From Candidatus Zapsychrus exili (lineage in GTDB: Bacteria; Omnitrophota; Gorgyraeia; Zapsychrales; Zapsychraceae), in the NCBI GenBank assembly GCA_030765585.1, contig JAVCCJ010000121.1, positions 71,233 through 111,550 on the forward strand: DNA of 40,318 bases, read 5' to 3'. Made by a program: the position numbers. Positions 30,001 to 39,000 of this stretch are shown one piece after another; within the stretch, counting starts at the first letter, position 1; every line of letters starts with the position of its first letter.

Positions 30001-33000
30001 GCCTGATATGAGACGAGTCATAGCATTTCATTTAGATACTGTGATGCCTCAAAAGAGAACAGATTATTTTGCTTTTGTAAATATTATTAATAAATGGTGT
30101 GACAAATTTGGCATTCCAGAGAATCAAAGATATTTATGGTACGGAGACTTAAAAGTAGCAAAAGACGGCGAATTAAAACAAATGAGCGATACAGAATTCA
30201 AAGTGTTGATAGAAGATATAGACAATAGAGATTTGAAGGTAGAAGAGTTTAAAAGAGCCGCTTTAGTTGCAGAAGACTGCCAGTATAATTTCTTTACGGC
30301 AATGAAAATGCAACTTACTTTGTTATCAAGTAAATTGAATAGTTTAGGTGGTTCTAATTTAGTTTTTGGAAGCACAGGCCCATCTTATGAAGGAAAAGGT
30401 CATGTTGCTTTTGTTGAGTCAGGATATGGCGATAGACAGCACGCTTTTATGGGACTAGGAGAATATCATTTTGCAGCTTCTCAAGCGCCTCAAAATGGAG
30501 GATATTCTGACATAATTGGTAAATATGGATATTTAACTTTTGCTATACCAGAATTTGTTCAGAGAAAAGATGCAAATTTAATTTGGATCGTTCTTGATAA
30601 TAAGAAACGTAATACTGTGCTTAATATGGTTGAAGGTAATCATGGAATAGATGTTAATGAATATCCTGCTGTTGGTTTGCAAAAAAGTAATGGCATATTA
30701 ATAGTGGATAATGCATCAGCTTCTGAGTTGCTTCTGAATAAATATCCTTGGGACTTTAAAGTGTTTAAGAATAGAGATTGGGTTTTTAATTTAGGAAAGC
30801 AGTTGTTTATACGTACAAGTAAAAGATTAGGTGTTTTAGTTAAGGATTTGACAGAAGAACAGTTTATTAACGCTGAAGGATCGCATGGACTTATTAGAGA
30901 TATAAGAGAGAAAAATTTAAAGTCGCTTATTAGCTCAATGAGTTGGGATAGATGGAAAGAAGTTGTTATTTCTGGGTTGAACAAAAATATAAAGCTTTCT
31001 AAGCCTGAAGCATTTGCAAGAAAGGTATGGGGGAATAATTTTGTTGATGAAATAATAGTAGCTCGTAAAACAAAAGATGAGTTGCTTGAAGAAGAAACCC
31101 TGCTAACTGGAGACACTGAAGATTTTTATCCTAAATTAATGCAGGCGCAGGAAAGATTAATGAGATTGCAAAAGGTAGTGGTTCTAGCTGATCCACATCT
31201 TGATGATAGTTTCTTGGCTGATCCAGATATGTTTAAACAGCTTATTGAGGCAGAATTTATACGAGTATATTCTATTTGCGCGACAATAGGGTCAGAAGCA
31301 GTAAGCGATAAATTAATTAAAGAGATGCTTGAATATATATTGACTTGGGATCAAGAAAAGATTGATATTGCAAGAAGTTTAAATAGGCAAGGGGCGGCAA
31401 AGACTATATTGTTAATGGCGATTAAGAATTCAGAATCAAAGAGTTTACTCTCTTATAATGTTCGCTCTAAAATGACAGAGGCAGAGTGGGACTTGCGCAC
31501 ACAATTATTCTTTAATTATGTAGCTATAAAAATGTTAAAAGCAGAAGAATTAAAAGCTAAGGAAGAAGTTAGTTTAAGATTCAATTATCTATTAAAAAGT
31601 TTAGAAGATAAACCAAAATGGGGATATAAAGATGTTGCCTTGATAGGTAAAATGAAGGGCATTGTAAGAATTATTGAGAACAAGACAGCTATGCTATCTT
31701 GGGGAATTATGTACAAAGATATTTTTGACCCTCTAGAGCCTAGCTATTATGCTTCAGGTGTAAAGCTTGGTACGGCAAGTTTAAAAGATATAGATAGTAT
31801 AATGACAATAATGAAAATGATAATAGATAAGCATGGCAGGATAGATGTAGTTTTTGGTAATGGAGAAGGATTCCAAGATTATGGAACGCATGCAACGGTT
31901 GAGGCGACTGTTATTGCTGCTTTATTAAATTTTGTTGAAGAAAAAATAATTGATCCAGCTAAATTTAAATATATAACATATGCTGGTGTTTGGGAGAGAA
32001 CAAAAACAGAGGAAGCTAATTTAAGTATTGTTTATACAAAACGAGAGATAGAAGAGTTTAAAGAGAGATTTAGACAGCTTTATGTATCGCAAGCTCCAGC
32101 AGAAATACCTGATGCAGGACATGAACAATTAATACTTTTCTCTGAAGCTGTAGAGAGAAATGGGCTAAAGACTGCAGATGAATTAAAATCTATAATTGAG
32201 CTAGATTCTAAAGTCGTTAATATTTTAGATGAAGGCGGTATAGTTCTTAATTTTAGAATAAGAAACTTATCTGATAAAGATGTTAGAAGAGGTTTACAAG
32301 ATAAGGTTAACGAGCTTAATCATCTTCGCGGCATACTTAAACAAACAAGTTATGTAGCGCTTTATGGCGAGTTGCCAACCAACAATTTTCCTTTACCGAC
32401 GGACAATCTTCATAAAAATTTTGACCCACGAGGTAGCGCTATCTTTGCTGCACAGTTAATGAAGGATAAATCTATTCTTAATTCTCATGTCTGGCCGCTT
32501 ATGATTGTTGGTATGATTGGCAGCATGCCATTGTGGTTGGGTTATGTTGCAGTGGTATCAATATTGGCAGTTATTGTATTACGTTACATTAAAAATCGTT
32601 GGAGCATAGTTAAAACTAAACAAGAAATTATATTAAATGAGTTAGAAAATATAGTGTTTAAAGAAGGCGATGACGTAGCAGAATATTTAAGAGATGAATC
32701 GCGTATAAAAGGGAAGGCAGATAAGGTGTTTGTGCCTCGTGATTATATAGAGATAGAAAAGATTTTAAGAGAAGCAAATAGAAGAAAAGTTCCTGTTACT
32801 ATTTCTGGTGCACGTACTGGCTTGGTTGCGGCAGCTGTTCCAAATGATGGCTGGGTTATTAGTATGGAACGTATAAACGAAATTATAAAGATTAAAAAAA
32901 ATAAAGATGGCAATGCTGGAAGTATTGTTGTGGGAGCAGGCGCTAGATTAGGTGATATAAGAGAAGCGGCAGAAAATGAAGGTTTATTTTTCCCAGTTAA

Positions 33001-36000: not shown

Positions 36001-39000
36001 TGTGACAGGTCTTTGTGGAGCTTTTACAACATTTGCGACTTTTATTCTTTTCGCAGATTCTTACTTGGGCACGCAAGGTTTACCTATATCAATTGGATAT
36101 ATACTGTTTAATCTTTTAGTGGGTATTGCAGTATTTTACGCAGGGCTTTATTTGACGAAGTTTATTAAAAATAAATTAGATTTAAATTTTCTAGCATTGG
36201 ATAAAAAACAGCTTCTTTTAATGCAAAACTGTTTAATAAATTATCTAAGAGAGAAAGGCCCAGAGGCTGGGCTTGTTCGTTTATTAATGAATAAGCTTGA
36301 TTTTAAAAATGATGTTAAGGTTGTAAATGGTAAAGCTATTATTCGACTTAACTCGGCAATTGAAATTTTAGGCGAGGATGCTTTAAGAGGTATTTATCTT
36401 ACAGAAAAATATGTATTACCTGACGGAGGAGTTACTTATCATGTAGATGAGAATGGAAAAATGTTGCTTCTGGATATCAATTCTTCATCTGCTTGGATTG
36501 GTGCTGATATGGAGGGTCGTGAGGATTGCAAAGCTTGTGTTATAAACGAAGATGGAGAAAAAGTTTGTATTTTAGGTTTGATTGATTTTGATAAAGAGTT
36601 AAGCGAAGAAGAAGAGAAGCGATGGAGAAAATGTAAAAGAAGATATGGTTTTATAAGAATTATTCGCACACGTTATGCATATTTCCCACAAATTTTTTAT
36701 GGATTATATGACGACGGAGAAGACATTTTGTTTGGAGCGGTTTCAGGTCCTTTCGTCCTTTGTTCAGGTCCGATGCAAATTTTGACGCAAGCATTAATGG
36801 CTTTTATGATATTAGTAGATTTATCATTGGCAATAATAGTTAAAATATTTTGGACGATATGGCGCATGACAAGATGTTTATATTTGGCTGATAAGGGTGG
36901 CAAAGAAGGTAAGAATAAGAAAAAGATTGTTGTAGACATAGGAGACGCATGCAAGGATCCAGTCTATAAATTAGCCAAGAAAGAATTTCCTAAAATTAAT
37001 TATTTCTTAGATTTATTTATTAGGGTTATCGTAAGAACTCCTCTTTATATTCCTTATGTTTTTGTTTGTCGTACTTGGCTAGGATGGCGCGACATAGAGT
37101 ATATAACTCGCGCTGTAGATCCAGAGGAAATAGAAATAGTAGACAGTCTTGTGACGCCAGACAGAACTATTTTTGATAAATTAAAAGAATATTCAATTTA
37201 TAAATTTGATTATTTAAGAAAGTTAGGACGCGAGCGTAAGAATATAAAATATAAGAAAGCTTCGTTACGTTTAAAATTGATTCAGAAAAGCGAAGATTCC
37301 TTGGAGCGTTTCCTACGTGACAAGAAACATATATCGTCTTATAAGAAATTAGGACAAGAAAGATTTAATGACAAAAGATCTAGAGAGCTTGAACATGGGT
37401 TTATTTGTATTTCTTTAGGTTATGATGGAAATATTTATCACCTTGCAGGAGTAGAGTCTTTTGTAAGATTATTACGGGCAGTATATGGTAGTAATTTATA
37501 TGATATATCTAAAGAATATTTGAGTACAGAAAGTCAAAAAGAAGCTTATGGCGCAATTAATAAAATAGTAAATAGAGAAATGCTAGGACAGAATAAGTTG
37601 GATCGCAAAAGATTATTAGAGCTTTTACAGGGGTTAATATACTTTGGTTTAATGGAGGATGGCGATATTATTCCTTATACGGGTGTTAAACATTTCAGAA
37701 GGCTTTTAGCTGCTAAACATGGAATGCCTCCAAAGAGGCCTATGCCACCAATGATTAATATAAAAGAGGTAATGAAATTATGCCAAGCTAAAATAATGCC
37801 TATTTGCATAGATATTCCAGGTGTATATATTCGCACTCATGCTCAATGTTCAGGGCATAATCAGAAGCCAAGATATAATCAAAGATTTGGACATTCGCAA
37901 AAATCAAAGCATAACCAGAAATCAGGCCATTCTCAATTATTAGGACATTCGCAACAATCAGGTTATTCTCAGCTATCAAAGCATTCACAGAAGATAGGTC
38001 ATACGCAGAAATCAGACCATTCTCAGTTATCAAAGCATTCACAGAAGTCAAAGCATAGCCAAAAATCAGGTCATTCTCAATGGTCTAAACATAGAAAAGC
38101 TCCAAGATTAAATTCAATTAAAGTAGTTAAGCATGAAATTGAACAAAGAAAGCAGTTTCATACAATTATTAATTATAAAGGCAGAGGTAATATAATAAGG
38201 CCTGCTGGAAGCGATAGGCTAAGAGAGACTTTCTTTAAGGTTATAAGATTTGGTGGGCAACGCGCCTCAACCATGCTTAAATGTGCTCATTCTCCGAGAC
38301 TTGCTAGTTCTCAATTAGCAAGAGACAATATGATTAGCAAAATTATTCCTTTGGAGCAGGTGAAAATTAACACAAAGATGCTTGCTAAACGAGAAAAAGG
38401 AGCGTCTTATATAACTCTTAACTATAAGGGAGATATAAGAATGCCTGCTGGAGTTGGAAATATAAGAAAAGTTATTTTTAAGACAATTAGGGAGATTTAA
38501 TTGTTTATATTGACCTATACCCCTTGAAACTACCCTGCCTTGTTAATTTAATATAATATGTTATACTTTCTCTACTATATAAGTTATTAAGTTTAAAAAT
38601 AAGTACGAGTAATAATAGATTGGAGATATAAATGAGAAGCAAAAGAATGATAATAGCTGTGTTTTTATGTGTTTTTGCTATGTTGATGTTCTCTTCCAAA
38701 GTTTTTTCCGAAGAAACATTAAAGGATGAAGGCGCCGCTTTTTTAGTAGAAGTAGCAAAATCACATTATCAAAGAGGTCAAATGGAGCAAGCCGCTCATG
38801 AATTTAGTAAGGTCTTGTTAATTAATTCAGACAATGAAGAAGCTTTAGAGTATTTAAAAAAGCTTGGTATGAGTCGCGGTTTATACTCTAAGCAAAAAAC
38901 GAGGCTGTCTAAGAAAATGGATATGTCAAAAGAGTTAGATTCTAGAGAATTCGGAAATAAAGTTTGCGAAACACCAAAGGTTGCCGAGCAAGAAACTGAT

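What a model noticed while it worked through the whole genome (the two positions that open the first line are those of the whole stretch)
32720..36148. A fused double CrcB (FEX-like) fluoride channel and an FAD lactate-dehydrogenase module inside a 7882-aa membrane protei [...]
The last giant gene of the C24 operon, g00299 (7882 aa, about 19 predicted membrane helices), holds in one chain a HAD hydrolase, a PRPP-synthetase-like N domain with a phosphoribosyltransferase, a complete FAD-linked D-lactate/glycolate oxidase module and, 400 residues further on, two CrcB domains in tandem, although the genome also has an ordinary single-domain crcB (g00395). I read the tandem as a covalently fused two-domain fluoride channel of the kind so far known from eukaryotic FEX proteins, built into the giant envelope protein, so that the giant is a working multi-enzyme and transport platform and not only an adhesin. 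New would be a bacterial FEX-type fused Fluc and direct evidence [...]
Evidence so far: pfam.tsv: CRCB at aa 6840-6947 (i-E 1.8e-22, hmm 3-102 of 103) and 7000-7099 (1.1e-14, 2-103); FAD_binding_4 at 5957-6096 (3e-30) and FAD-oxidase_C at 6170-6432 (7e-22); Hydrolase at 2610-2873; Pribosyltran_N at 3863-3940. The same calls repeat on cut pieces, plus Pribosyltran at 3077-3146. Swiss-Prot: aa 5939-6437 align with residues 28-471 of the 475-aa D-lactate dehydrogenase of Anaerostipes hadrus, 28.7% identity, E 4e-39. Hydrophobic segments at 6803-7077 coincide with the CrcB pair. A single-domain CrcB (g00395) and a second FAD_binding_4 gene (g00562) lie elsewhere. g00299 has no D-x-A-M junction words, so it is not a member of the handle family.
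(Added by a program. Inside this text positions count along the whole contig: contig position 71,233 is position 1 of the stretch shown here. "Call 12" and the like, gene names such as g00115 and contig names such as C1 are that model's own, and its searches are not shown. The text may have been shortened before it was handed on; [...] marks where a part breaks off. The agent that wrote the report below was given it as the finding of a first reader that could run no searches.)

Follow-up and report, generated by a model that had tools for sequence, protein, structure and literature searches.

The report
Fused fluoride channel inside giant protein
A giant bacterial membrane protein carries a built-in two-part fluoride channel of the single-chain design described so far for yeasts and plants, apparently keeping the opposite one of the two pores, although in this genome the giant gene looks broken upstream and other bacteria have stand-alone fused versions.

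Summary
Observation confirmed. The CrcB pair is a 4+1+4 inverted repeat: one linker helix, opposite charge bias, and a confident model (pLDDT 87) whose best PDB match is Candida FEX (Z 23.5, both domains). The pore owned by the first domain keeps T, N, F, E, Y; the second has T>P and E>F. FEX keeps the second pore, so this is the mirror image. The same cassette sits in a second giant (G386, that genome's only CrcB; second-pore E>K is a tested dead mutation) and in P0001, which shows no such asymmetry. Three corrections. (1) Fused bacterial CrcB is not unique: 12 named Bifidobacterium proteins have the design, though no paper on it was found. (2) The FAD module looks complete but is a separate cassette, not linked to the channel. 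(3) The 7882-aa ORF is probably the last piece of a ~24,000-codon gene cut by two frameshifts and a TAA that splits a conserved module, so a working platform is not shown here. The scan had not noted this cassette on other DNA; it had noted the first frameshift.

The parts
14852..38500 (+). 7882-aa ORF; probably the 3' third of a ~24,000-codon giant gene (C24:37451-109732)
14375..14674 (+). RelA/SpoT-like stretch at the end of the preceding ORF; the module continues past the stop
   Evidence: Pfam E 7e-4, below cut-off; homolog across the stop
14813..14815 (+). in-frame TAA between the 2761-aa and 7882-aa ORFs, inside a module that is open in a homolog
   Evidence: same letters in a contig of run X1
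6480..6555 (+). frame change between the second and third pieces of the giant gene, at A runs
22679..23470 (+). HAD hydrolase cassette, DxD motif present
24080..24289 (+). separate phosphoribosyltransferase cassette
26453..27211 (+). PRPP-synthetase-like two-domain cassette
32720..34147 (+). FAD-linked 2-hydroxyacid dehydrogenase cassette (LctD/GlcD type); GSEGTLG, GH..LH and EHGIG motifs present; predicted cytoplasmic
35252..35329 (+). extra helix TM0 (aa 6801-6826) that would set domain 1 N-out
   Evidence: low model confidence, pLDDT 51-66
35369..35692 (+). CrcB domain 1: R6851, T6870, N6874, F6910, S6911, F6913, E6916, Y6932, S6936 all kept
35720..35797 (+). single linker helix that inverts domain 2
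35849..36148 (+). CrcB domain 2: R7012, N7026, F7061, F7064, Y7083 kept; T39>P7022, S83>A7062, E88>F7067

Best explanation
The CrcB pair is a self-contained cassette: a gene-duplicated Fluc channel fused through one linker helix into an antiparallel single chain, convergent with eukaryotic FEX. It is one of the many plug-in modules that these giant membrane proteins collect. An upstream helix sets domain 1 N-out and the linker sets domain 2 N-in. Fluoride would leave the cytoplasm passively, driven by membrane potential, through one pore made of domain 1's T/N/F85/E/Y plus domain 2's F82. That pore has its T-E-Y gate on the cytoplasmic face as in FEX, but belongs to the other half of the chain. 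The domain-2 pore is probably closed. The FAD dehydrogenase is an independent cytoplasmic cassette. In this genome the ORF is the last piece of a giant gene cut by two frameshifts and a stop, so the channel is made only if translation restarts after the TAA or the breaks are minority or error alleles. SHOWN: domains, residues, linker, second and third copies, homolog across the stop. MODELLED: antiparallel fold. INFERRED: orientation, single pore, conduction, independent origin from FEX, broken gene.
For: Fold: AF2 on an 88-sequence alignment, pLDDT 86.9, pTM 0.82, helix-3 breaks at both TT motifs; best match FEX 9op1_C, Z 23.5, 238 residues, 3.6 A; single Flucs Z 11.7 or less; Foldseek E 1.7e-5. 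Orientation: K+R in domain-1 loops 1 and 3 = 4 and 5, loop 2 = 1; after the linker 6; domain-2 loop 2 = 3, loops 1 and 3 = 1 and 0; same pattern in P0001 and in domain 1 of G386. Pore make-up from PMC5417652; mutant table in PMC8315801: T39A/V/C/N and E88K dead, E88D and S83A active. G386 copy: domain 1 E88D, domain 2 E88K; only this cassette (aa 6764-7120, 34% identity, E 1e-39) is shared between the two giants. T39 is T in 37 of 37 single CrcBs from the phylum. Broken gene: homolog G447 aligns over query 3-234 with the stop at 200, inside a 5502-aa open frame; of the four pieces only the first starts with a signal-like stretch and has a C39 peptidase.
Against: No activity or expression data. 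T39P and E88F were never tested, and E88A stays active. P0001 has an intact domain-2 set and F85L plus Y104N in domain 1, so only 2 of 3 giant-type copies show the N-domain pore. The model was built with Fluc homologues and could favour the Fluc dimer shape by likeness to solved structures; the single-sequence model was poor (pLDDT 53). The loop before the linker has 2 K/R where outside is predicted. G000 has an ordinary crcB, so it does not need this one. The tree has 125 columns, most forks open, and no FEX rows. Same-frame abutting ORFs are common in this genome (49 of 512 pairs), and Pfam finds no TGS across the stop.
Confidence: 0.65

Rival explanations
1. The cassette is dead cargo: giants sweep up housekeeping genes, and the CrcB pair is decaying or serves only as a membrane anchor.
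For: Long branches for the giant domains, 1.5-2.1 changes per column for domain 2; own crcB present; gene broken upstream; cassette in only 2 of 168 genomes of the order; 24 of 61 genomes searched have no CrcB match at all, so G386 need not depend on it.
Against: Three copies at 35-38% identity keep R, N, both TT-F motifs and the G pattern in both domains. The losses in G000 and G386 fall in one pore and differ (P/F versus K), and domain 1 of G386 took the tolerated E88D.
Confidence: 0.2
2. The channel is double-barrelled, or slow in both pores, and the domain-2 changes are tolerated.
For: Domain 2 keeps N, both F, Y and R; E88A and S83A are active in Fluc-Bpe; P0001 may keep both pores.
Against: Every tested T39 change except serine kills Fluc-Bpe, and E88K of G386 is a tested dead change.
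Confidence: 0.1
3. The giant gene is intact in the living population and the three breaks are assembly or consensus errors, so a ~24,000-aa protein carries the channel and the enzymes.
For: Such errors are reported to split giant genes, also in short-read assemblies (bioRxiv 2023.11.21.568195); contig depth is only about 2-15; one X1 contig differs by single-base gaps at the second junction.
Against: An X1 contig covers the TAA with 0 differences (though X1 may be the source sample); X2 does not show the gaps at the second junction; the two gaps together would not restore the frame.
Confidence: 0.3
4. g00299 is a real separate gene with its own start.
For: TTG at 14852 lies 14 bases after a GAAGGGG stretch; 49 of 512 adjacent ORF pairs abut in frame.
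Against: A homolog runs through the stop in one frame; no signal-like start; one of only 10 of 512 pairs whose first ATG is over 100 bases past the upstream stop.
Confidence: 0.2

Closest known systems
Eukaryotic FEX (Candida albicans FEX, PDB 9OP1; yeast Fex1p; PMC12808221, PMC5417652)
   Same: Two CrcB domains joined by one transmembrane linker, antiparallel, broken third helices, one intact and one degraded pore; predicted gate on the cytoplasmic side.
   Different: Bacterial; embedded in a giant chain with an extra upstream helix; opposite domain orientation; intact pore owned by the N-terminal domain (FEX: C-terminal); all four phenylalanines of the box kept (FEX keeps two); 20-23% identity.
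Bacterial Fluc/CrcB homodimers and heterodimers (Fluc-Bpe 5A40, Fluc-Ec2 5A43, La1/La2; PMC3755343)
   Same: Domain fold (rmsd 1.5-2 A), motifs, about 28% structural identity; the engineered La1-La2 fusion with one linker helix is an active channel.
   Different: Natural covalent fusion with fixed orientation.
Stand-alone prokaryotic two-domain CrcB in databases (e.g. WP_277150324.1, Bifidobacterium sp. ESL0775; Bifidobacterium commune)
   Same: 4+1+4 layout, one degraded residue set.
   Different: Separate clades in the tree, no giant context, different degraded positions (F82Y in domain 1, F85A in domain 2); no paper found.
Omnitrophota giant proteins ('Archaeovorins'; bioRxiv 2023.11.21.568195, 2026.06.07.730766)
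   Same: N-terminal C39 peptidase in the first piece, many helices, mixed metabolic domains including HAD hydrolases.
   Different: Neither main text mentions CrcB or fluoride; supplements could not be read.
LctD/GlcD/LDHD FAD-linked 2-hydroxyacid dehydrogenases (7QH2, 9QGZ, 8JDC)
   Same: Both domains and the conserved motifs.
   Different: Inside a giant; far below NCBIfam equivalog cut-offs (GlcD 174 vs 568 bits); substrate and electron acceptor unknown.

Membership tests
Fluc/CrcB superfamily | PF02537 above cut-off, four helices per domain | tested here: met
   85.8 and 61 bits vs 32.9; model
Fluc/CrcB superfamily | Broken third helix with G..G.xTTFSTF motif | tested here: met
   TTFSTF and TTFATF; breaks in the model at both
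Fluc/CrcB superfamily | At least one full pore set (T39, N43, F85, E88, Y104 plus partner F82) | tested here: met
   domain-1 set complete
Fluc/CrcB superfamily | Selective fluoride conduction, bound sodium | not testable with these tools
   needs assays
FEX | Two domains in one chain with one transmembrane linker, antiparallel | tested here: met
FEX | Functional pore II: PxGTxxxN, F..E and YxxxS motifs in the C-terminal domain | tested here: not met
   C-domain has T>P and E>F; the intact set is in the N-domain
FEX | Half of the phenylalanine box lost | tested here: not met
   F6910, F6913, F7061, F7064 all present
FEX | Common descent with eukaryotic FEX | not tested
   no FEX rows in the tree
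FAD-linked 2-hydroxyacid dehydrogenase (PF01565+PF02913) | Both domains and His/His/Glu-His motifs | tested here: met
   that these residues bind metal and substrate is recalled, not from a call
D-lactate dehydrogenase LctD / GlcD proper | Equivalog score and substrate | tested here: inconclusive
   below cut-offs
Omnitrophota giant proteins | Giant frame, N-terminal C39, many helices, mixed domains | tested here: met
   for the four pieces together; the phylum label comes from earlier scan notes and this likeness, not from a taxonomy call

The most novel reading that the evidence does not exclude
Giant proteins of this lineage carry an active single-pore fluoride channel that evolved FEX's fused design independently and kept the N-domain pore, the arrangement that PMC5417652 said it could not find. 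In G386 it has replaced the stand-alone crcB. That would be the first activity assigned to a module of these giants, and a natural repeat of Fluc-to-FEX evolution with the opposite domain order but the same cytoplasmic gate.
Probability: 0.4. Interest if true: 0.8.

Novelty: new variant of a known kind. Interest (0 to 1): 0.6.

Why it matters
Fluc/FEX is the model family for how antiparallel dimers become fused inverted repeats, and the papers read place the fused stage in eukaryotes. Independent bacterial fusions, including one with the mirror-image pore, would give replicates of that transition and show whether the side of the membrane or the order in the chain decides which pore survives. 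For the giants, no module has yet been assayed in the papers read. A 310-residue cassette with a simple growth test would show directly whether their plug-in domains work.

Tried and rejected
The search for related loci with P0001 (metagenomes) and with the window cassette (genomes) found no relative. The alignment scan of metagenomes was capped (594 pattern hits, 535 confirmed, best 80 kept): 0 of 80 loci had two CrcB domains in one frame or a frame over 268 aa. A search for longer proteins with the three-giant profile found none (weak evidence). Single-sequence folding failed. TGS across the stop was not detected by Pfam or the PDB search or against the genome's own frames; the TGS label is my recall of the motif. 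No RNA holder was listed, so expression is untested. No fluoride riboswitch at gathering score in the window, L001, L030, L046 or L047. No CLC match in G000, G386 or G060 (genomes 94-96% complete). A universal rule 'the retained pore has a cytoplasmic gate' was considered and not claimed: P0001 and the Bifidobacterium set do not clearly fit. Functional coupling of the FAD and CrcB modules was rejected: G045 has the FAD cassette (54% identity, long frames at contig ends) and no CrcB match, and the fetched 13,934 codons of the G386 giant have no FAD cassette (its 5' part is off the contig). Literature searches for a bacterial fused Fluc and for giants gave no such paper. The library lacks most subscription papers; Macdonald and Stockbridge 2017 (PMC5612848) was seen only in a reference list and may already mention prokaryotic fusions. 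The careful tree did not finish; the quick tree is reported.
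Full report
Observation. The ORF 14852-38500 is 7882 aa without a stop. Pfam confirms the HAD, PRTase, Pribosyltran_N, FAD_binding_4, FAD-oxidase_C and two CRCB domains at the stated places. 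Both CrcB hits pass the family cut-off, and the genome has a third, ordinary crcB on C33. The Pribosyltran hit is its own cassette; the PRPP-synthetase-like unit further on has both halves.

Anatomy of the CrcB pair. Hydropathy gives an extra helix (aa 6801-6826), the domain-1 helices, one linker helix (6957-6982) and the domain-2 helices. AlphaFold2 on an 88-sequence alignment gives pLDDT 86.9 and pTM 0.82, with helix breaks at both TT motifs; the extra helix is low confidence. The best structural match is Candida FEX 9op1_C: Z 23.5, 238 residues, 3.6 A, spanning both domains, while single Flucs score 11.7 or less; Foldseek agrees. The alignment held Fluc homologues, so likeness to solved dimers may have helped the model. 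Positive-inside counts point to domain 1 N-out and domain 2 N-in, with one loop (2 K/R, predicted outside) fitting less well. With the extra helix, the FAD cassette falls on the cytoplasmic side, as no hydrophobic segment was found between aa 5904 and 6801. This is inference.

Pores. In PMC5417652 (passages) one pore consists of one domain's T39, N43, F85, E88 and Y104 plus the other domain's F82 (Fluc-Bpe numbers). All FEX seen there keep the C-domain pore, and the authors write that a pore-I type was not evident in their analysis. Here domain 1 keeps T6870, N6874, F6913, E6916, Y6932 and domain 2 supplies F7061: a full set. Domain 2 has proline at T39 and phenylalanine at E88. PMC8315801 (passages) lists T39A/V/C/N and E88K as non-conducting and E88D, E88A, E88Q and S83A as conducting; T39P and E88F were not tested. 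T39 is T in 37 of 37 single CrcBs from the phylum. So the N-domain pore is the likely conductor, and by the predicted orientation its gate faces the cytoplasm, as in FEX (PMC12808221, parts 1-3 of 11 and passages).

Other copies. G386 (same order, other family) has the cassette in a frame of at least 13,934 codons. It is the only part shared with this giant (aa 6764-7120, 34%). Its domain 1 has E88D and its domain 2 E88K, the same asymmetry by different changes. It is the only CrcB found in that 94% complete genome, with no CLC match. The gene next to crcB in the congener G060 survives in G386 as a truncated remnant with stops and no crcB behind it. Against over-reading this: 24 of 61 genomes searched have no CrcB match at all. 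P0001 (569 aa, unnamed, giant-like signal) is a third copy; its domain 2 set is intact and domain 1 has F85L and Y104N, so the asymmetry holds in 2 of 3. The cassette is rare: 2 of 168 genomes of the order, only G000 among 401 of the class, and 2 among the listed matches for 401 of the phylum, with 39 weaker matches unlisted. The samples overlap. In a quick tree (113 rows, 125 columns, most forks open, no FEX rows) the G000 and G386 first domains pair (SH-aLRT 96), the three second domains group weakly (61), and none sits with the genome's own crcB.

Fused CrcB elsewhere. Of 275 sequences examined, 94 have two CrcB-like domains. Thirty have a linker of 30 or more residues with one hydrophobic helix: the three giant-type copies and 27 stand-alone proteins, four of them cluster mates of others. 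Twelve are named Bifidobacterium proteins such as WP_277150324.1; the rest are unnamed or labelled only CrcB protein or fluoride exporter. Bacterial FEX-like fusion is therefore already in databases. The papers read place fusion in eukaryotes (PMC3755343 passages; PMC11139923 passages; PMC12808221; PMC3962082 passages, silent on it). Six searches found no paper on bacterial fusions. The 2017 review PMC5612848 was not read and may mention them.

FAD cassette. It matches LctD 7qh2_C (E 4.7e-38) with the GSEGTLG, GH..LH and EHGIG motifs and lies far below GlcD's cut-off, so the substrate is open. A 54% identical copy lies in long frames of G045, which has no CrcB match; the fetched G386 giant lacks it. 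The two cassettes are neighbours by shuffling. Mixed metabolic domains in such giants are published (bioRxiv 2023.11.21.568195 and 2026.06.07.730766, passages). Neither main text has CrcB or fluoride, but their closed supplements could list PF02537.

The ORF is probably a fragment. The four giant ORFs of C24 cover 37451-109732, about 24,000 codons, joined by two overlaps with a frame change and one in-frame TAA. Only the first has a signal-like start and a C39 peptidase. The TAA follows a RelA/SpoT-like stretch (E 7e-4), and a homolog in G447 aligns across it in a 5502-aa open frame (E 1.4e-9). In-frame abutting alone means little (49 of 512 pairs). A contig of run X1 covers the TAA with no difference, but X1 may be the source sample and depth is about 4.5; at the second junction an X1 contig lacks two single bases and X2 does not; only 16 of 147 pieces were shown. 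Assembly errors are known to split such genes. A real break is somewhat more likely than an error; restart at the TTG is possible.

Verdict. It works like FEX by architecture but fails the FEX pore test, so it is filed as a new variant of the Fluc family. The fold is well supported, activity is inferred, and the 'working platform' claim is not shown for this genome. Earlier scan notes gave the Omnitrophota label and the first frameshift; no note holds this cassette. Interest 0.6.

Noticed in passing
P0181, P0199, P0201, P0208, P0229 and others (64 proteins of about 235 aa): A family, named Methylobacter/Methylovulum/Methylococcales where named, with a full CrcB followed directly by a degenerate second CrcB that lacks helix 1 (4+3 helices). 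Dropping one helix would invert the second domain without a linker helix: another route to a fused Fluc. One paper search found nothing on it.
   Followed up: partly
P0152, P0157-P0172: Clade of stand-alone 4+1+4 fused CrcB in Bifidobacterium, linkers 56-156 aa, F82Y in domain 1 and F85A in domain 2.
   Followed up: partly
P0002, P0003, P0014, P0057, P0124, P0134: Further unnamed stand-alone fused CrcB pairs, apparently from separate fusions; P0002 and P0134 have lost E88 in domain 1, like FEX.
   Followed up: partly
window 37921-38079: 18-base repeat array (His/Ser/Gln/Lys-rich hexapeptides) near the end of the ORF.
   Followed up: no
window 6530-14815, aa 404-937: Strong match to 1,3-beta-glucan synthase (PF02364, E 1.7e-60) in the third piece of the giant gene.
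   Followed up: no
L047:2048-2123 (G386): c-di-GMP-I riboswitch about 250 bases after the stop of the G386 giant, ahead of a 1409-aa frame; that giant also holds sigma-70 regions 2 and 4, RelA/SpoT, CofD, NUDIX, ROK and GNAT hits.
   Followed up: no
G000 C83 (2027 + 1145 aa, minus strand) and C10:8911-24821: Other pairs of very long neighbouring ORFs that may also be split giants.
   Followed up: no
L001:1838-2601: The genome's ordinary crcB is followed by what looks like a HAD-type gene in two frames, 92 and 172 aa.
   Followed up: no
P0155 (753 aa): Single CrcB fused to a HAMP-PAS-histidine kinase-receiver chain; one short contig, could be a chimera.
   Followed up: no
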